A DNA stretch of 45,090 nt. Source: a virus (taxonomy: Duplodnaviria; Heunggongvirae; Uroviricota; Caudoviricetes). The DNA lies in the IMG/VR virus record IMGVR_UViG_3300022697_000186, positions 1 through 45,090 of that record, one strand, 5' to 3'. Below the pieces are notes generated by a model. That model ran no database searches and had not been told where the DNA came from. It was given only the letters and a program-made list of their open reading frames with translations. The translations under genes were made by a program, and so were the position numbers. Shown here in pieces: positions 16,170 to 31,073 of the stretch (positions within the stretch are counted from its first letter, which is position 1; each line of letters opens with the position of its first letter).

Positions 16170-16174
16170 GATTT

Positions 16175-16253
16175 AGAGGCTATAATAATTCTTCCTTCTA
16201 TCACAGGCTTCATGCCTGTACATATTTTCTAAATAGAATTGTTAATTTCCTCT
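16175..16253 (+). ncRNA. Y-RNA-like structured element, copy 1
   Basis: AGAGG-CTATA-ATAATTCT-TCCTTCTA-[hairpin ACAGGC/GCCTGT]-AGAATTGT-TAATTT-CCTCT. Confidence 0.7.
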
Positions 16254-16266
16254 TTTAAAAATATAA

Positions 16267-16343
16267 TCCGATAGGTCCCTTCTGGCAGGGGAACTGGACT
16301 GTTAATCCAGTAGTTCTTGGTTCGAGTCCAAGTATCGGAGCCA
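16267..16343 (+). tRNA. trnN: tRNA-Asn(GUU)
   Basis: TCCGATA/TATCGGA, CTGGA-CTGTTAA-TCCAG, G73, CCA. Confidence 0.95.
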
Positions 16344-23448: not shown

Positions 23449-23525
23449 GCGGCAGTAATTCAGTCAGGTAGAATGCAACTTTACCGAAGTTGATGTCGTA
23501 GGTTCGAATCCTACCTGCCGCTCCA
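23449..23525 (+). tRNA. trnG: tRNA-Gly(ACC)
   Basis: GCGGCAG/CTGCCGC, CAACT-TTACCGA-AGTTG, canonical T arm, U73, CCA. Confidence 0.9.
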
Positions 23526-23585: not shown

Positions 23586-24317
23586 ATGCAGTTATGTAGT
23601 TACGGTTGTGGTCAAGAAGGTAAATTCCCTTTACAAAATGGAAAAATTTGTTGTAGTTCTCATTTTACTAAATGTCCTGAATTAATTAAAAAATTTCAAA
23701 GTGGTAAACATCAGACATTCAAACATTGTTTTAAGTGTGATAAAAGTATTTGTGAAAGTTTATTTAATTATCACGTTAGAACATGTATTATTAAAAAATG
23801 TTTAGAATGTAAAAAACAATTAACAGGAGATTATAGAAATAAATTTTGTAGTCATACTTGTGCAGGATATTATAATAATAGAAAAAATGGCGGAAGTTTA
23901 AGAAAAAATTACAGAAGTTTAAGAAAAAATGACAGAAAAAGAGAAAAAATTTATAATTGTTTAAATTGTAATCAAAAATTTAAAAATCCTAAAAAATATT
24001 GTAATTTTAAATGTCAAGTCGATTATAAATATAAAAATGATATAATACCTTGGCTTTCTGGTATTGATAATGGTATAAGAGGAACTAGTACAGCATCTTT
24101 TATTAAACGTTATATCAAAAAACGTGATGGTGAAAAATGTTGTCAGTGTGGATGGGCAGTAATTCATTCAATTACAAACACTATACCTATACAATTAGAT
24201 CATATAGATGGTAATTGGAAAAATAATAATCCTAATAATCTTAGATTATTATGTCCTAATTGTCATACTTTAACAGAAACATATGGTTCTCTTAATAGAG
24301 GAAATGGAAGAGGATAA
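23586..24317 (+). CDS. HNH homing-endonuclease-like protein with zinc-finger N-terminus
   Basis: CSYGCG N-terminus, CCQCGW, LDHIDGN..NN...NLRLLCPNCH. Confidence 0.9.
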   Translation: MQLCSYGCGQEGKFPLQNGKICCSSHFTKCPELIKKFQSGKHQTFKHCFKCDKSICESLFNYHVRTCIIKKCLECKKQLTGDYRNKFCSHTCAGYYNNRKNGGSLRKNYRSLRKNDRKREKIYNCLNCNQKFKNPKKYCNFKCQVDYKYKNDIIPWLSGIDNGIRGTSTASFIKRYIKKRDGEKCCQCGWAVIHSITNTIPIQLDHIDGNWKNNNPNNLRLLCPNCHTLTETYGSLNRGNGRG

Positions 24318-24330
24318 TTAAAGGAGATTT

Positions 24331-24621
24331 ATGACTGATACTGATGATATGTGGAATCAAACTACAGAAGAATTAGAAGAATTAAGAAATAACATAAAAT
24401 CTGGAGTTAATATCCCAGATGATGGTGGTAAAATAAATGATTTAAAAACTACAATTGCAATGTTTGAGGATATAGTACCAAATAAAAAAGGTAAATTTAA
24501 ACTAGCTCCTGAAGAACCTGGGTATATAAATTGGACATCTGATGATAATATTAAATATTATTTTTTAACTAAACTATGTCCAAACTTAGTAAATCAACTA
24601 AATTTAATGGAGATGAGTTAA
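24331..24621 (+). CDS. Hypothetical protein
   Basis: RBS AAGGAG. Confidence 0.6.
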   Translation: MTDTDDMWNQTTEELEELRNNIKSGVNIPDDGGKINDLKTTIAMFEDIVPNKKGKFKLAPEEPGYINWTSDDNIKYYFLTKLCPNLVNQLNLMEMS

Positions 24622-24622
24622 A

Positions 24623-24799
24623 ATGTATTTAATTGTATTTGGATTAGTATTTATAACTACATCTACTTTTTTATATATGATTATGTCTGAGATGGATATG
24701 ATAGAAAGAACAAAAAAGATGGATGATATAATAGATAATATAAAAGATGATAAATCACTACAAGATATGGGAGAATACACAATTGATTCAGAATTATAA
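24623..24799 (+). CDS. 58-aa membrane peptide
   Basis: Hand-translated; N-terminal TM. Confidence 0.45.
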   Translation: MYLIVFGLVFITTSTFLYMIMSEMDMIERTKKMDDIIDNIKDDKSLQDMGEYTIDSEL

Positions 24800-24822
24800 T
24801 TATATAAAATAAGGAATAAAAA

Positions 24823-25113
24823 ATGACTTTAAAAATGCTTGGAAATAAGATATTAGTATCATTACCTGAACAAGAAGATGAAAAAACAGAAGGCGGAGTT
24901 ATTCTAACAGAAGCTAATAGAGAACATAAACATGGTGAAGGTACTGTAATTGCAGTAGGTCCAGGTGTTCAAGATAATCAAGGTAATATTCATCCTATAC
25001 CTGTAAAAGCTGGAGATAAAATATTATATAATGGACATAATTCATTACCAATTAAATATAATAATAATTTATATTTAATTATTATTGAATCTGATTTATT
25101 TGCAATAATATAA
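24823..25113 (+). CDS. groES: Co-chaperonin GroES
   Basis: LGNKILV, KTEGGVIL, G.VIAVGPG, VKAGDKILY, I.ESDL.AI. Confidence 0.92.
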   Translation: MTLKMLGNKILVSLPEQEDEKTEGGVILTEANREHKHGEGTVIAVGPGVQDNQGNIHPIPVKAGDKILYNGHNSLPIKYNNNLYLIIIESDLFAII

Positions 25114-25117
25114 ATAA

Positions 25118-25207
25118 GGAAGAGCAAGCCAACAGGTGGTGGTCGCTACCTTGAAAGTAGTTAGGAGTTAATGACTCGTGGGGGTTCGACTCCCTCCTCT
25201 TCCGCCA
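25118..25207 (+). tRNA. trnS: tRNA-Ser(UGA)
   Basis: GGAAGAG/CTCTTCC, CTAC-CTTGAAA-GTAG, long variable arm, G73, CCA. Confidence 0.9.
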
Positions 25208-25320
25208 ATTTCAATTGATAATGTATATTAAATTTATAGATAACTTAATTAATAACTTTTTAATCAAAATATAGGGGTATATAAGATGAAACATGTATAA
25301 CTTTAAAATATAACAGATAT

Positions 25321-25452
25321 TAGGGCTATAATAATTCTTCCTTCTAATAATCGGCTCTGGGTGTCGTGAGTTCGAGTCTCACCACTCTCACCACATGAGA
25401 GTGTAGCTCAGTTGGTAGAGCGCCGGAATTAACAGAATTATTAATTACACTA
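25321..25452 (+). ncRNA. Y-RNA-like element, copy 2, carrying a circularly permuted tRNA domain (YrlA-like topology)
   Basis: Conserved GGCTATA-ATAATTCT-TCCTTCTA...AGAATTAT frame enclosing T arm, acceptor stem closed by CCACA loop, then D arm. Confidence 0.85.
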
Positions 25453-25461
25453 AATTTTATT

Positions 25462-25524
25462 TGAGGCTATAGTAAAACTTCCTTCTACTTTATTTGAAAA
25501 ATCCTAGTTTTACCAATCTCCTCA
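25462..25524 (+). ncRNA. Y-RNA-like element, copy 3
   Basis: TGAGG-CTATA-GTAAAACT-TCCTTCTA-loop-AGTTTTAC-CAATCT-CCTCA. Confidence 0.75.
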
Positions 25525-25549
25525 TTTTATTTAATAAAGGAAAATTATA

Positions 25550-27649
25550 ATGAATAAAATAGATATATCTATTAAAAAACTAAATGGTTTAGTTTTAGAA
25601 CATGCATCTAACAGTGCAGTTCCAATAAAATCAAATTTATTAACTTGCTCTCTAAATGTAGAAATGATGAGACTTGGTTTCATCATGTCGAAAGATTTAA
25701 TGGAAACTTTTGCTACATTGGAAAGTAAAGTACAACAATCTACTGCAAAAAAAGTAATCTCTTGTCTTAAAAAATTAAAAGGTGATGATGTTACATATGT
25801 TCCTATGTATCCTAATTTTCCTGAACAAGTAATGAATATGTCACACTTCGAATTATACATGAATGCATTTCTTCATTATTGGTCAGATGGTAAATGGTCA
25901 CCAGAGACAGCAAAACTTCCAAGAAAATTCGAGTTAGAAGATACTAAGTTTAAACATATAAAAATGTTAAATGAAGATCAATTTTCCAATTTGTTCACAA
26001 CTTTACTAAGTTCGAATGATTCTTTATCTAGAGAAGATAAGTCTGTTATTGATTGGTATTTATTTAATCATGATGATTTAAGATATCCTGAAGAAATTCC
26101 TTATAAAGAAACTCTCTGTATTATTGCAGTAGATCTTCTTAATAAAAATGAAAGTATATCTGATATGGTTAAAACTTCTACAGATTTACTTCGTGTAATA
26201 ACTCATCTAAATGAAGGTGATATTTCGTTAACTGAAAATACTAAGTTTAAATCTCTTCCAAGGTCTAAACGTAAATATTTTACAATGTTATTAGAAAATA
26301 TTATTACAGAAGAAGATATTCAAAGACATCGTAATAAATGGGTTAGATTATTTCATAACTTACATGTAGGTGAATATTCAAATAAGGTAAGATTGATAGC
26401 AGATAAAATTAGATCTAATAAAAAATTAGAAACTACAGCTGGTAAAGTACAAGCGTTAATGAATAATTCAAAATTTGTGGAAGCATCTAAATTACTCATG
26501 ACAAGACCAGGTGAATTTGCTAGAAGATTAGATCATTTATTAAGAGAATCTAATGGTAATTCAATGACTATTATAGATAATTTTCATAAAGTACATTCTA
26601 ATATATCAACTCGTGTTTTAATGCAATTAGTAGGACATTTTAAGTCACGTAATAATATAGTAAATAGAGTAATATTCCCTAAAGGTAATACTCAAAAAGC
26701 TGTAATGATAGATACTAATAAAATTAGGATTCCTGAAAAAGAAATTAGATATCTATTAGATGGTATAGAATCTACATTATTAGATAGATTTTCTAAACTT
26801 AAACCTTTAGGTAATGTATTCATAGATGAGAGATTGAAAAAATGTCCTTTACCAGCACAACAACGTAGTTCTTCTACTGGATTGAATGTAGTAGCAAGAG
26901 GTACTAGATTACCTATTGATAACGACAAGAATACTTTACGATTCTTTATTCACTGGATAGGTATTGATATCGACCTCTCAGCAACATTACATAACGATGA
27001 TTTTAGTATGATTGAACATATATCTTACACAAATTTAAAGTCAACTGAATATCAGTCTGTTCATAGTGGAGATATTATTAGAGCTCCAGGACCTAAAGGT
27101 GCTTCTGAATTTATTGATATTACTATGGATAAGGCATTTGAATATGGTGTGCGATATATTGTAATGAATGTTTTAGTTTTTAATGGTCCTAATTTTAGTG
27201 AACATGAAAAATGTTATGCTGGATGGATGACAAGAAGTAAACCAAAAAGTAATGAGATGTTTGATCCTAAAACAGTAGAATCTAAGATTGATTTACAAGC
27301 AAATTCAAAGAATGCTATACCAGTAATTTTTGATTTAAAGACTAGGGAAGCAATTTGGTGTGATCTTATTACTCCTAGTCATATACAATGGCAAGAAGAA
27401 TCAAGTTTTGATAGAAAAAATAGGTTACATGGTAATAATGTACAAAATAATAAAGCATCAATTGAAGATGTTTTAAAATCTATTATATCATTAGATAATA
27501 AATCTACACTTCATGATTTATTAACACTTCATGCTTTAGCAAGAGGTAATATTGTTGATGTTCCTAATGATGCAGATGTATTGTTTGGTATTGAAGGAGA
27601 TGTTACTCCTAGAGATGTAAATATCATTAACTCAGAGTTTTTAGTATAA
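25550..27649 (+). CDS. 699-aa protein: large helical N-terminal region + C-terminal TerD-like domain (candidate TROVE/Ro60-like)
   Basis: TRPGEFARRLDHLLR helical motif; C-terminal DIDLSA, HSGD, ASEFIDI TerD-like motifs; flanked by the ncRNA repeats. Confidence 0.65.
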   Translation: MNKIDISIKKLNGLVLEHASNSAVPIKSNLLTCSLNVEMMRLGFIMSKDLMETFATLESKVQQSTAKKVISCLKKLKGDDVTYVPMYPNFPEQVMNMSHFELYMNAFLHYWSDGKWSPETAKLPRKFELEDTKFKHIKMLNEDQFSNLFTTLLSSNDSLSREDKSVIDWYLFNHDDLRYPEEIPYKETLCIIAVDLLNKNESISDMVKTSTDLLRVITHLNEGDISLTENTKFKSLPRSKRKYFTMLLENIITEEDIQRHRNKWVRLFHNLHVGEYSNKVRLIADKIRSNKKLETTAGKVQALMNNSKFVEASKLLMTRPGEFARRLDHLLRESNGNSMTIIDNFHKVHSNISTRVLMQLVGHFKSRNNIVNRVIFPKGNTQKAVMIDTNKIRIPEKEIRYLLDGIESTLLDRFSKLKPLGNVFIDERLKKCPLPAQQRSSSTGLNVVARGTRLPIDNDKNTLRFFIHWIGIDIDLSATLHNDDFSMIEHISYTNLKSTEYQSVHSGDIIRAPGPKGASEFIDITMDKAFEYGVRYIVMNVLVFNGPNFSEHEKCYAGWMTRSKPKSNEMFDPKTVESKIDLQANSKNAIPVIFDLKTREAIWCDLITPSHIQWQEESSFDRKNRLHGNNVQNNKASIEDVLKSIISLDNKSTLHDLLTLHALARGNIVDVPNDADVLFGIEGDVTPRDVNIINSEFLV

Positions 27650-27653
27650 TATT

Positions 27654-27717
27654 TGAGGCTATAGTAAAACTTCCTTCTACTTTTATTTGAAAAATCCTAG
27701 TTTTACCAATTTCCTCA
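27654..27717 (+). ncRNA. Y-RNA-like element, copy 4
   Basis: Near-identical to copy 3 (one substitution, one inserted T). Confidence 0.75.
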
Positions 27718-27724
27718 TAATTTA

Positions 27725-27756
27725 ACCTCTACCTTATGTATTTATAGGGTAGGGGT
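27725..27756 (+). terminator. Terminator-like hairpin
   Basis: ACCTCTACCTTAT-GTATTT-ATAGGGTAGGGGT, weak T tract. Confidence 0.55.
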
Positions 27757-27913: not shown

Positions 27914-28942
27914 ATGGACTACAGATATAATTATGGTGTTATAATCGGAAGATTTCAACCATTTCATAAGGGGCATGTAAACCTTATAGAAGAGGCAATG
28001 AAAATTGCTAAAACTATAATAATAGTTATTGGTTCTGCAACAGGAGCAGTAAATATTAAAAACCCATGGACGTATGAACAAAGAAAAGATATGATTCTTT
28101 CAGTGTTTAATAACCATGAAAATAAAATTCAATTTATTGGTGCTAGAGATTATTTTTATCAAGATAATATGTGGGTTACAGAAATACAACAAAAAATTAA
28201 TATGATTAATCAGGATGATGATAATACTTGTATTATAGGTACTTATAAAGATTCATCCTCATATTATCTTAGATTGTTTCCTCAATGGGATTTAGTACCT
28301 ACAAAAATACAAAGAGATTATCTTAGTTCTACTGATATAAGAAATTCTATGTATAATCGTGATACTTCTGAATTTAAGTGGGAAGATAATTTACCTAATA
28401 GTGTTGTTAAGTATTTACATGATGATTATTTAACCACAGAAATATATAAAAATATGATAGAAGAACATCAATTTGTACAAAATTATAAAACTCAGTGGAA
28501 AGATTCTCCATTTCCTCCAATATTTAGTACTGTAGATAATGTTGTTTTTAAATCTGGACATGTTTTAGTTATTAAACGTGGTGCAAATCCTGGTAAAGGT
28601 TTATATGCAATACCAGGTGGATTTCTAAAAGAAACTAAAACTTTAAAACAAACAGCATTAGATGAATTAAAAGAAGAAACTAGAATACCTATTGATAAAG
28701 TTATTCTTGAAAAACATATATTTGAAGAAAAAACTTTTGATTATGTAGGTCGTTCTACACGAGGTAGGACTATTACGCAAGCATTTGCTTATAATTTAGG
28801 TGATGGTAATTTACCATTAGTTAAAGGATCAGATGATGCATCTTGGGCAGGTTGGGTTCCATTAATGGATATACTCACAATGGAAAATAAATTTTATGAA
28901 GATCATTTTCATATAATTAATTATTTTGTAAATAGGTTTTAA
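27914..28942 (+). CDS. nadM: Bifunctional NMN adenylyltransferase / Nudix ADP-ribose pyrophosphatase
   Basis: IGRFQPFHKGH, KNPW, LSST.IR, Nudix box PGGF.....TL...ALDELKEET, GSDDA. Confidence 0.93.
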   Translation: MDYRYNYGVIIGRFQPFHKGHVNLIEEAMKIAKTIIIVIGSATGAVNIKNPWTYEQRKDMILSVFNNHENKIQFIGARDYFYQDNMWVTEIQQKINMINQDDDNTCIIGTYKDSSSYYLRLFPQWDLVPTKIQRDYLSSTDIRNSMYNRDTSEFKWEDNLPNSVVKYLHDDYLTTEIYKNMIEEHQFVQNYKTQWKDSPFPPIFSTVDNVVFKSGHVLVIKRGANPGKGLYAIPGGFLKETKTLKQTALDELKEETRIPIDKVILEKHIFEEKTFDYVGRSTRGRTITQAFAYNLGDGNLPLVKGSDDASWAGWVPLMDILTMENKFYEDHFHIINYFVNRF

Positions 28943-28943
28943 A

Positions 28944-28960
28944 GTAGTCAAGTTGACTAC
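28944..28960. promoter_or_regulatory. Palindromic operator, NrtR-box-like
   Basis: GTAGTCAA-G-TTGACTAC perfect inverted repeat with GT-N7-AC core; degenerate copy at 27844..27858. Confidence 0.5.
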
Positions 28961-29010
28961 ATTTTTATTGTAGGATTCCATGTAGGAGTCTGAAATATTT
29001 TTAAGGAGGT
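28957..29010 (+). repeat. 54-nt leader repeat upstream of nadV
   Basis: Identical to 27855..27908. Confidence 0.9.
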
Positions 29011-29015
29011 CCACA

Positions 29016-30401
29016 ATGGACAATTTAGTAATTGATAGCGATTCATACAAATTTTCGCACTGGTTACAGTACCCTAAAGGTACAACAAGAATGATCTCTT
29101 ACTTAGAAAGTAGAGTTGGTTCTAAATATCAAAATACAGTATTTTTCGGATTACAATATATTTTAAAAGAATATTTAACTAAAACAGTTACTATGGAAAT
29201 GATAGAAGAAGCAAAAGAATTTGCTACTTTACATATGGTACCATTTAACTACGAAGGTTGGAAATATATTGTAGAAGAACTTAAAGGTAAACTTCCAATA
29301 AGAATTAGAGCAGTACCCGAGGGAACTATTGTTCCAATTGATAATGTTTTAATGACAGTTGAAAGTACAGATCCAAAAGTGTTTTGGGTTGTATCTTGGT
29401 TTGAAACTATATTAATGAGAATATGGTATCCTATTACAGTTGCTACACAAAGTTGGCATTGTAAAGAAATTATAAAAAGTTATCTAGATAAAACATCAGA
29501 AGATACTGCAGCAGAAATTGGTTTTAAATTACATGATTTTGGATCTAGAGGTGTATCAAGTAGAGAATCTGCAATGATTGGTGGAGCAGCTCACTTAGTA
29601 AACTTTTTAGGTTCGGACACATGTGCAGGTATATGGTGTGCAAATAAATACTATAACGAAAAGATGGCAGGATTTTCAATACCAGCGGCAGAACATAGTA
29701 CTATGACAGCATATGGTAAAGACGGTGAAGAAGAGGCATATAGAAATATGCTAAAGCAATATGCTAAACCTGGAGCTATTGTAGCAGTAGTATCTGACTC
29801 ATGGGATATCTACAATGCTATAACTAATATTTGGGGAAAGAAACTCAAACAAGAAGTTATAGATTCAGGAGCTACTATTGTAATACGTCCTGATTCAGGT
29901 AATCCTCCTGAGGTTGTACTTAAATGTCTTGAATTATTAGAGGAAGCATATGGTGTTTCTTATAATACAAAAGGTTATAAAGTATTAAATCATGTTAGAG
30001 TAATACAAGGTGATGGTATTAATATAGATATGTTAAGAATTATATTAGAAACTATTACTAGTGCAGGTTATTCCGCAACAAATGTTGCTTTCGGAATGGG
30101 CGGTGGATTATTACAACAGTTGGATAGAGATACCCAAAGATTTGCCTTTAAGTGTTGTCTTATGACAATTGATGGTAAAGATGTAGATATATTTAAAGAA
30201 CCTGTAACTGATAGTATGAAAAGATCTAAATCCGGAGAACTTGATTTAGTTTATAATCATGGTAAGTTTGAAACAGTTAAAGGTACTAGAGTTATAGGTA
30301 GTATTATGAAAGATGTTTTTCTTAATGGTAAAATATTAAGAGAAACTAATTTAACTACTGTACGTGACAGAGTTAATGGTAAATTAACTCCGATTGATTA
30401 A
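29016..30401 (+). CDS. nadV: Nicotinamide phosphoribosyltransferase (NAMPT)
   Basis: DSDSYKFSH, LHDFGSRG, IPAAEHS, VSDSWD, IRPDSG, QGDGI, FGMGGGLLQ..DRDT..FAFK. Confidence 0.95.
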   Translation: MDNLVIDSDSYKFSHWLQYPKGTTRMISYLESRVGSKYQNTVFFGLQYILKEYLTKTVTMEMIEEAKEFATLHMVPFNYEGWKYIVEELKGKLPIRIRAVPEGTIVPIDNVLMTVESTDPKVFWVVSWFETILMRIWYPITVATQSWHCKEIIKSYLDKTSEDTAAEIGFKLHDFGSRGVSSRESAMIGGAAHLVNFLGSDTCAGIWCANKYYNEKMAGFSIPAAEHSTMTAYGKDGEEEAYRNMLKQYAKPGAIVAVVSDSWDIYNAITNIWGKKLKQEVIDSGATIVIRPDSGNPPEVVLKCLELLEEAYGVSYNTKGYKVLNHVRVIQGDGINIDMLRIILETITSAGYSATNVAFGMGGGLLQQLDRDTQRFAFKCCLMTIDGKDVDIFKEPVTDSMKRSKSGELDLVYNHGKFETVKGTRVIGSIMKDVFLNGKILRETNLTTVRDRVNGKLTPID

Positions 30402-30727: not shown

Positions 30728-31073
30728 GGGGACGCAATGGTTTCGATTGGATTCCAAAGTTATTAATAGGCATGTCGTGGGGATAGTCGACCACGTAAAA
30801 ACGCTTAAAAGTCTTAATTGACGAAAATTCTTTCGCACTCGTAGCTTAAGCTACGACATCATACACCTAGTGTTTCCTAGTGTAAGTGTATTGGTGTAAT
30901 TTAATTAGGATAGTTTAGATTATTTCTGTTATAATCTATACGAAATTTAAACAGATAGTAAATGTAAAATTTGTTTGTGGAGATTGCATTTATAAACTAA
31001 ACACAGAATAAACATGTAGTCTATAGTAATCAAAGTTTTCAAGACTCGGGTTCGACTCCCGACGTCTCCACCA
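30728..31073 (+). ncRNA. ssrA: tmRNA, tag (A)DENSFALVA
   Basis: GGGGACG/CGTCTCC with G3:U70, T arm TTCGACT, ACCA; tag ORF 30820..30849. Confidence 0.93.

What the first reader, a model, noticed from the sequence alone, without database searches (positions are those of the whole stretch)
25321..27717. Candidate phage Ro60/Y-RNA-like ribonucleoprotein system: 699-aa helical+TerD protein bracketed by a family of structured ncRNAs
Seen: four elements (16175-16253, 25321-25452, 25462-25524, 27654-27717) share the frame (G)AGG-CTATA-[8-bp stem]-TCCTTCTA-[variable insert]-[stem']-YAATYT-CCTC (outer stem degenerate in copy 2). The inner stem covaries (ATAATTCT/AGAATTRT versus GTAAAACT/AGTTTTAC) while CTATA and the pyrimidine loop stay fixed, which indicates selection on RNA structure. 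Three copies sit immediately around the 699-aa gene. Established: bacterial Y RNAs have a terminal protein-binding stem with an internal bulge, a pyrimidine-rich loop and sometimes a tRNA-like module, and are encoded beside their Ro60 (TROVE+vWA) partner. Inference: the helical N-terminal part of this protein is a divergent TROVE ring with TerD in place of vWA, binds the shared stem, and uses the inserts as interchangeable effector modules (RNA repair, decay or nuclease decoy). The stem does not resemble the canonical Ro-binding helix as I recall it, so this could be an undescribed class.
Basis: partly seen in the sequence, partly recalled or inferred. Interest (0 to 1): 0.95.

Follow-up and report, generated by a model that had tools for sequence, protein, structure and literature searches.

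The report
Ro60-like TerD protein with handle RNAs
A jumbo-phage gene for an unstudied 699-residue protein is surrounded by four small structured RNAs sharing one conserved "handle"; the same pairing recurs beside this gene family in phages and many bacterial phyla, which points to an undescribed RNA-protein particle built like Ro60 with its Y RNAs.

Summary
Four + strand elements (16174-16254, 25320-25453, 25461-25525, 27653-27718) share the frame NNNNGG-CYAU-[9-bp covarying stem]-UCCUUCUA-[insert]-[stem']-NNUUY-CC-NNNN.

- **Copy 2:** its insert is a permuted tRNA-like module that matches Rfam YrlA at 42 bits, below the 69-bit threshold.
- **RNA family:** no Rfam family matches the core. A covariance model built here hits about 280 sites in about 130 related loci. 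All but two are on the gene's strand, and nearly all lie within about 2 kb of it.
- **Neutral sample:** in 151 Bacillota genomes the model hits only the two genomes that carry the gene.
- **Neighbours:** no protein-coding neighbour is conserved.
- **Distant relatives:** a Bacteroidota subfamily carries a changed handle and sits beside RtcB.

The RNA-protein partnership and the Y-RNA-like modular design are well supported. TROVE ancestry is only suggested, and neither binding nor expression has been shown. This scan has already reported the same system in at least 35 other genomes. I found no published description.

The parts
16174..16254 (+). Handle RNA copy 1. Its insert holds a GC hairpin (ACAGGC...GCCTGT). 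It lies 9 kb from the gene, directly upstream of tRNA-Asn (16267-16343).
   Evidence: R1 49.5 bits, E 2e-11. MFE fold z -4.0. Sequence.
25320..25453 (+). Handle RNA copy 2, the long form. The same handle encloses an 87-nt permuted tRNA-like module. The outer stem has one G-A mismatch.
   Evidence: Sequence. Fold. R1 gives only 17 bits because of the long insert.
25344..25447 (+). YrlA-like tRNA mimic inside copy 2. The order is anticodon-stem 3' strand, T arm, acceptor stem closed by an ACCACAU loop, D arm, then anticodon-stem 5' strand.
   Evidence: Rfam RF02553 YrlA 42.3 bits (gathering 69), E 2.8e-8 over 351 nt.
25461..25525 (+). Handle RNA copy 3, the minimal form with an 18-nt loop after UCCUUCUA. 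It ends 25 nt before the ATG, just ahead of the ribosome-binding site AAAGGAAAA.
   Evidence: R1 62.0 bits, E 8e-15. Fold.
25550..27649 (+). Gene for the 699-aa protein (stop codon included). It belongs to a large family with no Pfam domain.
   Evidence: ORF. phrog_33734, function unknown, 5.5e-81. NF041916 372 bits, below the 600-bit cut-off. 2250 homologues among the 8000 candidates scored. 3537 cluster representatives at E<=1e-3 and 2027 at E<=1e-30.
25550..26884 (+). N-terminal helical (alpha-solenoid) part, residues 1 to about 445. Residues from about 140 to 440 are the Ro60-like region.
26924..27472 (+). TerD-fold beta-sandwich, residues 459 to about 641. Residues 611-636 are a low-confidence loop. 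The invariant motifs GxDIDLS, HSGD and GAxEFID lie here.
27461..27646 (+). C-terminal helices, residues 638-699. They return to the helical domain after the TerD insertion.
   Evidence: Secondary structure. The Ro60 alignments run through to residue 699.
27653..27718 (+). Handle RNA copy 4, the minimal form and nearly identical to copy 3. It starts 4 nt after the stop codon.
   Evidence: R1 66.8 bits, E 4e-16. Fold.
27725..27756 (+). Terminator-like hairpin directly after copy 4. It may mark the end of the transcription unit.
   Evidence: Consensus scan only. 2 sites found against 0.5 expected.

Best explanation
The 699-aa protein and the four RNAs form one functional unit. It is a ribonucleoprotein built on the plan of Ro60 with Y RNAs, but with different parts.

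- **Protein:** a helical ring-like domain with a calcium-binding-type TerD beta-sandwich inserted near its C-terminus, where Ro60 has its vWA domain.
- **RNA handle:** a 6-bp outer stem ending in GG:CC, an asymmetric internal loop (CYAU opposite NNUUY), a 9-bp stem of free sequence, and the invariant single-stranded UCCUUCUA.
- **RNA modules:** the handle is the likely protein-binding site. The inserts are exchangeable modules, either a short loop, an extra hairpin or a YrlA-type tRNA mimic. They would present the particle to other RNA enzymes or RNAs.
- **In this phage:** the unit sits inside a tRNA/tmRNA array, so it probably serves RNA (tRNA) surveillance, repair or protection during infection.

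Shown: the RNA family, its structure, its strict linkage to the gene family, the TerD fold, and RtcB linkage in a distant subfamily. Inferred: direct binding, stable trans-acting RNAs, and the RNA quality-control role.
For: **RNA structure**
- 94-95% of cells pair against 58-59% in shuffles. The covariation score is 0.88-0.91 against 0.15-0.20 for slid or shuffled controls. 12 of 15 pairs and 14 of 15 show compensatory changes.
- With partners chosen on Watson-Crick pairs only, G-U outnumbers A-C 143 to 48 (p 4e-12). This points to an RNA read from the + strand.

**Linkage to the gene**
- 150 model hits in 65 viral loci, all on the gene's strand.
- 125 hits in 67 bacterial loci, 123 on the gene's strand and next to it.
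- In a neutral sample of 151 Bacillota genomes, RNA hits occur only in the 2 genomes that hold the gene. All 5 hits lie within 2 kb upstream of the gene on its strand, four of them directly upstream.
- Actinomycetota relatives of 736 and 808 aa also carry the RNA.
- No protein neighbour is conserved over 121 distinct locus groups.

**Y-RNA-like design**
- Insert lengths cluster at 14-25 nt and at 81-98 nt. Most of the long inserts carry T and D arms.
- YrlA matches of 39-45 bits occur in the window, L001 and L086.
- No TROVE gene is found in the phage record or in 5 bacterial genomes that hold the family.
- One genome has both systems. Its canonical TROVE gene has its own YrlA-like RNA with a different stem.

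**Protein**
- Ro60 entries are the only matches covering 260-309 residues. Their rmsd of 4.5-5.5 A compares with 5.8-6.5 A between true Ro60s. In Ro60 the vWA domain is likewise inserted into the helical domain and binds Ca2+ (PMC12135203).

**Co-variation and context**
- Bacteroidota relatives at E about 1e-35 carry four RNAs with an altered handle, GGUCAA...UUACUUC.
- In 4 of 5 of those genomes an RtcB gene lies 0.5-2.5 kb away on the same strand. This parallels the rsr-yrlBA-rtcBA operon.
Against: - There are no expression, end-mapping or binding data.
- TROVE ancestry is not shown. There is no Pfam TROVE hit at E<=10 in 40 members. hhalign of the N-terminal profile against a TROVE profile gives probability 0.45%. 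Foldseek on the isolated domain finds nothing, and Ro60 is absent from the Swiss-Prot AlphaFold hits.
- The RNAs next to the start codon could act in cis on the mRNA.
- No RtcB or RlaP gene is in the phage record, and the close relatives have no conserved repair-gene neighbour. The functional link to RNA repair therefore rests on a distant subfamily.
Confidence: 0.65

Rival explanations
1. The elements act in cis. They are leader or trailer structures of the gene's own mRNA, for example operators through which the protein represses its own translation or stability, and not stable trans-acting small RNAs.
For: Most copies lie directly upstream of the start codon or just after the stop, on the same strand. 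Copy 3 ends 25 nt before the ATG. The pyrimidine loop UUCCUU could pair with the AAGGAA of the ribosome-binding site (by eye). No separate promoter stands out.
Against: Copy 1 lies 9 kb away beside a tRNA gene. Loci carry up to 5-6 tandem copies with different stems and inserts. The tRNA-like modules have no obvious cis role. Two bacterial loci have the RNA divergently oriented. Autoregulation could still coexist with a trans role.
Confidence: 0.15
2. This is a conflict system of the type III toxin-antitoxin kind. Tandem structured RNAs encoded upstream neutralise or regulate a harmful protein, which the RNA holds inactive until infection or stress.
For: Tandem RNA arrays lie directly upstream of a single protein gene on the same strand. 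The pair is a standalone two-part unit with no conserved neighbours. It has a patchy, mobile-looking distribution across phyla and phages.
Against: Copies within a locus are not near-identical repeats. They are diverged paralogues with compensatory changes and different modules. No nuclease or other toxin domain was found, and there is no PADLOC match. The protein is large and mostly a helical scaffold.
Confidence: 0.07
3. The repeats work at the DNA level, as hairpin recombination or transposition sites that bound a mobile gene cassette. Copies 3 and 4 do flank the gene as direct repeats.
For: Near-identical copies 3 and 4 bracket the gene. The gene is patchily distributed.
Against: G-U exceeds A-C three to one on the gene's strand. 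The single-stranded loop sequence is invariant across phyla. Some copies contain tRNA-like modules. Many loci have copies on one side only. No recombinase is a conserved neighbour.
Confidence: 0.03
4. The RNAs serve some other partner, such as a host Ro60 or a tRNA enzyme, and only happen to be linked to this gene.
For: The tRNA-like module resembles that of Ro60-bound YrlA.
Against: Co-occurrence is exclusive in 151 neutral genomes. No TROVE gene is present in 5 carrier genomes or in the phage. The handle changes together with the protein subfamily. The canonical TROVE locus in a shared genome uses a different stem.
Confidence: 0.03

Closest known systems
Bacterial and phage Ro60 (Rsr; TROVE + vWA) with Y RNAs YrlA/YrlB, Yrn1 and phiLo Yrl1/2 (PMC4201824, PMC12135203; Rfam RF02553)
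   Same: - One large helical protein is encoded beside one to several small RNAs.
- The RNAs share a bulged-stem handle and differ in their other end.
- At least one RNA type carries a tRNA mimic of the YrlA kind.
- A globular, probably Ca2+-binding domain is inserted near the C-terminus of the helical domain.
- Solved Ro60s are the only long structural matches.
- A distant subfamily is linked to RtcB, as in rsr-yrlBA-rtcBA.
- The system occurs in large phages with tRNA arrays.
   Different: - There is no TROVE sequence signature, and no profile-profile similarity.
- A TerD beta-sandwich stands in place of vWA with its MIDAS site.
- There is an extra N-terminal region of about 140 residues.
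- The handle (GGCYAU / UCCUUCUA / UUYCC) differs from the Ro60-binding motifs GNCGAAN0-1G and GGUCCGA.
- The two systems coexist in one genome, each with its own RNA.
- No partner such as PNPase is known.
TerD family proteins of the tellurite-resistance (Ter) stress system (TerD/TerE/TerZ, B. subtilis YceD/YceE; PDB 2kxt, 3ibz, 2qz7)
   Different: Ter proteins are single-domain proteins of about 190 aa encoded in ter operons with TerB, TerC and TelA. Here the domain is embedded in a 700-aa helical protein, with RNAs as its only conserved partner. Pfam TerD does not reach significance on the sequence.
NCBIfam NF041916, MXAN_6230/SCO0854 family RING domain-containing protein
   Same: It is clearly homologous over the C-terminal two thirds (372 bits; residues 289-673 against profile positions 382-761). 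Atlas structural neighbours have TM 0.87 by query.
   Different: The score is below the 600-bit cut-off, and the phage protein has no N-terminal prokaryotic RING domain. The function of that family is also unknown. Whether RING-bearing members keep the RNA was not settled. Two Actinomycetota relatives scoring below that family's cut-off do.
Type III toxin-antitoxin systems (ToxIN and similar)
   Same: A tandem array of small structured RNAs lies directly upstream of one protein gene on the same strand, as a standalone two-part unit.
   Different: The repeats here are diverged paralogues with different modules, not identical units. The protein has no endoribonuclease fold and is four times larger.

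Membership tests
Ro60 / TROVE (Pfam PF05731) | Sequence match to the TROVE domain | tested here: not met
   No PF05731 hit at E<=1 for the protein, nor at E<=10 for 40 family members. hhalign of the N-terminal profile against a profile of 24 TROVE proteins gives probability 0.45%.
Ro60 / TROVE (Pfam PF05731) | Ring of antiparallel HEAT-like helices with the Ro60 fold | tested here: inconclusive
- Foldseek gives 2nvo probability 0.98 at E 0.019 on the whole model, but nothing for the isolated domain.
- Model coordinates could not be inspected for ring closure.
Ro60 / TROVE (Pfam PF05731) | vWA domain with a MIDAS site inserted in the helical domain | tested here: not met
Ro60 / TROVE (Pfam PF05731) | Encoded next to Y RNAs, at least one with a tRNA-like domain | tested here: met
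   Four handle RNAs are present, and copy 2 carries a YrlA-like module. The same holds in related loci.
Ro60 / TROVE (Pfam PF05731) | Specific binding of the protein to the Y RNA stem | not testable with these tools
   No RNA-protein binding or complex-prediction tool was available. Binding is inferred only from linkage and from the handle changing with the protein subfamily.
YrlA (Rfam RF02553) | Score at or above the gathering threshold (69 bits) | tested here: not met
   42.3 bits for 25344-25447. The YrlA-like RNA beside a canonical TROVE gene in genome G155 also scores only 39.9 bits.
YrlA (Rfam RF02553) | tRNA-like module (T arm, D arm, closed acceptor stem) entered through the anticodon-stem position | tested here: met
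   Alignment to the model. Fold.
YrlA (Rfam RF02553) | Ro60-binding stem with the conserved GNCGAAN0-1G motif (PMC4201824) | tested here: not met
   The stem is GGCUAU...UCCUUCUA...UUACA/UUUCC. The outer parts of the YrlA model align without conserved matches.
TerD (Pfam PF02342) | TerD beta-sandwich fold | tested here: met
TerD (Pfam PF02342) | Sequence match to the Pfam model | tested here: not met
   No PF02342 hit at E<=1. NCBI names one homologue 'TerD family protein'.
NF041916 RING_SCO0854 | Score above the curated cut-off, with an N-terminal RING domain | tested here: not met
   372 bits against a cut-off of 600. Only profile positions 382-761 of 842 are matched.
Type III toxin-antitoxin | Near-identical tandem RNA repeats plus an endoribonuclease toxin | tested here: not met
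   Copies within a locus differ in stem and insert. No nuclease fold or PADLOC match was found.

The most novel reading that the evidence does not exclude
Bacteria and large phages carry a second, Ro60-independent class of adaptor ribonucleoprotein. A helical-ring/TerD protein, perhaps gated by Ca2+ or a small ligand through the TerD domain, grips a universal RNA handle. It uses a set of exchangeable RNA modules (tRNA mimics, hairpins, short loops) to recruit RNA repair or decay enzymes to damaged tRNAs or other RNAs. Phages would deploy it to keep translation running against host RNA-targeting defences.
Probability: 0.5. Interest if true: 0.85.

Novelty: new variant of a known kind. Interest (0 to 1): 0.8.

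Why it matters
Ro60 with Y RNA is the only well-studied example of a protein whose activity is programmed by modular, tRNA-mimicking small RNAs, and its bacterial role is still poorly understood.

This finding offers a second, apparently unpublished system of the same design:
- It has a different protein domain set and a different RNA handle.
- It is present in thousands of protein clusters across many phyla and in jumbo phages.
- It provides an independent case for asking what such particles do.
- It adds a new RNA family to Rfam-type catalogues.
- It gives a first functional clue, an RNA partner, for a large family of 'hypothetical' or 'TerD family' proteins.

The strict linkage, the cultivable carriers (Brevibacillus, Paenibacillus, Niallia) and the small size of the RNAs make it directly testable.

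Tried and rejected
- **Rfam:** at gathering thresholds over the whole window, only tRNAs and a tmRNA were found. At E<=10 on 25210-25560 and E<=1 on four related loci, there was no family for the handle.
- **Near-identical DNA in GenBank phages:** no match.
- **PDB by sequence:** nothing with the single protein or the profile.
- **Pfam:** no TROVE or TerD for the protein or for 40 members.
- **hhalign against a TROVE profile:** negative.
- **Foldseek on the isolated N-terminal model:** no match at E<=0.001, and Ro60 is not in the top 50.
- **AlphaFold Swiss-Prot:** only TerD proteins.
- **AlphaFold clusters:** family members under mixed automatic names ('ZorC EH domain', DUF4132, RING). These names were not followed up further. 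ZorC did not appear in the PDB-wide structural search.
- **ESM Atlas:** only unnamed, TerD or RING relatives.
- **PADLOC:** no defence-system match.
- **Neighbour clustering:** apart from shadow ORFs inside the gene, no recurrent neighbour.
- **Promoter scan:** not above the shuffle expectation.
- **Sequencing runs:** none was listed for the window stretch.
- **RtcB and RlaP:** not found in the phage record, which is 69% complete.
- **Papers:** Burroughs & Aravind 2016 and Sim et al. 2020 are not held in the library. I could not check whether they mention a TROVE-like/TerD protein. Searches for TROVE+TerD, SCO0854/MXAN_6230 and YrlA gave no description of this system.
- **G-U against A-C:** a first count was biased by my selection rule. 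A second was noisy. Only the selection on Watson-Crick pairs is used.
Full report
**What is in the window**

The window is an AT-rich stretch of a 236-kb virus record (69% complete by CheckV). It holds 18 tRNA genes and a tmRNA gene, nearly all on the + strand.

They share this frame:
- a 6-bp outer stem whose last two pairs are GG:CC;
- a 5' bulge CYAU;
- a 9-bp inner stem that ends in C-G and U-A;
- the single-stranded octamer UCCUUCUA;
- a variable insert;
- the 3' strand of the inner stem;
- a 5-nt 3' bulge (AAUYU or GCUUU type), and then CC plus the outer stem.

The pattern GGCYAT-N6-14-TYCTTCTA occurs four times in the whole 236-kb record, always on the + strand, and never as the reversed control.

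Copies 3 and 4 are nearly identical minimal forms. They bracket the 699-aa ORF (25550-27649). Copy 1 has an extra GC hairpin and lies 9 kb away, just before tRNA-Asn. Copy 2 has an 87-nt insert that is a circularly permuted tRNA. Rfam's YrlA model matches it at 42.3 bits, below the gathering score of 69, with E 2.8e-8 on the 351 nt searched. A terminator-like hairpin follows copy 4.

**The RNA is a real, widespread family that is not in Rfam**

The homologous gene in another phage (57% identity, L001) is preceded by five tandem RNAs of the same design. One of them is YrlA-like at 45.5 bits.

- The simple pattern is found beside the gene, on its strand, in most of 80 viral loci and in 63 of 80 bacterial loci.
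- I collected 186 distinct elements. Their inserts cluster at 14-25 nt, with a second group at 81-98 nt. Most of the long ones contain T and D arms.
- A MAFFT alignment of 52 short elements, made without structural input, shows 94.1% of cells paired against 57.7% in shuffles. The covariation score is 0.91 against 0.18, and 0.15-0.20 when the partner is slid. Most stem positions use all four Watson-Crick pair types.
- My elements had been picked by their ability to pair. I therefore repeated the count on 121 distinct bacterial hits of the covariance model. That gave 95.0% paired, a score of 0.88 against 0.18, and 14 of 15 pairs with compensatory changes. This alignment is fitted to the model, so it leans towards the structure.
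- With partners chosen on Watson-Crick pairs alone, G-U outnumbers A-C 143 to 48 (p 4e-12). This is what an RNA read from the gene's strand would show, and not what a DNA hairpin would show.
- No Rfam 15 family matches the handle.

**Linkage to the gene family**

- Model R1 gives 150 hits at E<1e-3 in 65 viral loci, all on the gene's strand.
- It gives 125 hits at E<1e-4 in 67 bacterial loci. Of these, 123 are on the gene's strand. Almost all lie in the 450 nt before the start codon or the 300 nt after the stop codon.
- As a neutral test I searched 151 Bacillota genomes drawn evenly from the phylum. The RNA model hits two genomes, and the protein profile hits the same two. All five RNA hits lie within 2 kb upstream of one of the three gene copies, on its strand, and four of them lie directly upstream.
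- Actinomycetota relatives of 736 and 808 residues also have a hit beside them.
- Clustering all ORFs of 162 loci (121 distinct groups) found no recurrent protein-coding neighbour.

The conserved unit is therefore the gene plus its RNAs and nothing else.

**The protein**

The family is large. There are 2250 hits among the 8000 candidates scored in the 90%-clustered collection. Among 1.84 billion 50%-identity representatives, 3537 match at E<=1e-3 and 2027 at E<=1e-30. Members occur in phages (Rhodococcus phage Weasels2, Xanthomonas phages XacN1 and Xoo-sp13, Lactobacillus phage LpeD and others) and in many phyla.

It has no Pfam domain. It falls in PHROG 33734, of unknown function. It is homologous over its last two thirds to NCBIfam NF041916, a RING-domain family that is itself uncharacterised.

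The AlphaFold2 model is confident (pLDDT 86.5, pTM 0.84).
- This domain holds the invariant motifs GxDIDLS, HSGD and GAxEFID. From my own knowledge these resemble the Ca2+ sites of TerD.
- After TerD the chain returns to three helices (638-699).

**Is the helical part a TROVE ring?**

Foldseek gives Rsr probability 0.98 at E 0.019 on the whole model. It gives nothing for the isolated domain.

The phiLo paper reports that true Ro60s share only 16-18% identity and differ by 5.8-6.5 A rmsd. It also reports that the vWA domain is an insertion within the HEAT domain and binds Ca2+ (PMC12135203). Both the size of the deviation and the position of the inserted domain therefore fit.

**Relation to canonical Ro60 systems**

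The phage record has no TROVE gene, and neither do five bacterial genomes that hold the family. The YrlA-like RNAs here are therefore not partners of a canonical Ro60.

One Bacillota genome has both systems. It carries two copies of this gene, each with handle RNAs. It also carries a canonical TROVE gene preceded by its own YrlA-like RNA (39.9 bits), whose stem has no GGCYAU or UCCUUCUA. That pattern is what two orthogonal RNA-protein pairs would give.

**A distant subfamily links the system to RNA repair**

- In a sample of 301 Bacteroidota genomes, five carry distant relatives (E about 1e-35, open frames of about 750-780 aa).
- In four of these five, an RtcB RNA-ligase gene lies 0.5-2.5 kb away on the same strand.
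- These genomes are probably related to each other, so this may be one inherited operon rather than independent events.
- Upstream of the gene sits a 120-nt tRNA-like RNA.
- By eye, in two loci there are four RNAs whose handle reads GGUCAA-N7-8-UUACUUC in place of GGCUAU-N9-UUCCUUCUA.

A handle that changes together with the protein subfamily is what direct recognition predicts. The order RNA, gene, RtcB parallels rsr-yrlBA-rtcBA in Salmonella. The phage itself has no RtcB or RlaP in the part that was sequenced. A related phage locus does have an RlaP gene nearby.

**Mechanism**

The most likely reading (about 0.65) is a Ro60/Y-RNA-like particle. The protein binds the handle, and the variable inserts act as adaptor modules. 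In the phage the particle works on tRNAs or other RNAs during infection, within a region that also encodes tRNAs, a tmRNA and NAD+ salvage enzymes.

The RNA structure, the linkage, the modularity, the TerD fold and the RtcB context are shown. Binding, RNA stability and the biochemical role are inferred.

The rivals are:
- a purely cis-acting leader or operator (0.15), which could coexist with a trans role;
- a type III toxin-antitoxin-like pair (0.07);
- DNA-level repeats (0.03);
- a different protein partner (0.03).

**Novelty**

I found no paper describing this pairing. A 2021 survey of jumbo phages lists ROT/TROVE proteins and standalone TerD genes separately (PMC7824862). Two papers that might mention it are not held in the library.

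This scan has already reported the same system on other DNA: 39 notes in at least 35 genomes, with follow-ups that reached similar conclusions. Those are unchecked AI notes and are not independent evidence. What I state here rests on the calls cited.

I class the finding as a new variant of a known kind. It shares the design of Ro60 with Y RNA, but has a different domain set, a different handle, and unproven kinship.

Noticed in passing
window 30728-31073: A phage-encoded tmRNA (Rfam 156 bits) with tag peptide DENSFALVA. It lies 3 kb downstream of the RNA-protein unit.
   Followed up: no
window 7679-35198: 18 tRNA genes, all on the + strand. They include tRNA-Gly with the unusual anticodon ACC (23449-23525) and two tRNA-Arg(TCT). 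One tRNA-Ser (25118-25207) was called tRNA-Sec by Rfam at exactly the threshold score.
   Followed up: no
window 27914-30401: Directly after the unit lie two NAD+ salvage genes. One is a cytidylyltransferase/NMN adenylyltransferase with a Nudix domain (342 aa). The other is a nicotinamide phosphoribosyltransferase (461 aa).
   Followed up: partly
window 23586-25113: An HNH endonuclease (243 aa) and a GroES-like co-chaperonin (96 aa) lie just upstream of tRNA-Ser and the RNA array.
   Followed up: partly
L002:2154-2284: One related phage RNA carries a tRNA-like module in the normal, unpermuted order (acceptor, D arm, anticodon-like arm, T arm) inside the same handle. The module can therefore be attached through either the anticodon stem or the acceptor stem.
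   Followed up: no
L173:2475-2609 (-) and L176, L177: One Bacillota genome holds a canonical TROVE gene with its own YrlA-like RNA, plus two copies of the TerD-type gene with handle RNAs. It is a natural test bed for cross-specificity.
   Followed up: partly
L189:3700-4030 (-), L191:190-545 (+): A Bacteroidota subfamily has four upstream RNAs with the variant handle GGUCAA...UUACUUC. The first sits inside a 120-nt tRNA-like RNA, and an RtcB gene follows the protein gene.
   Followed up: partly
L120:5786-5846 (-), L122:5782-5844 (-): In two gammaproteobacterial loci (Oceanospirillum, Pseudoalteromonas) the handle RNA is divergently oriented to the gene. These are the only exceptions to the same-strand rule.
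   Followed up: no
L001:176-1075: An RlaP (RNA-repair-associated nucleotidyltransferase, PF10127) gene lies 2 kb upstream of the RNA array in a related phage.
   Followed up: no
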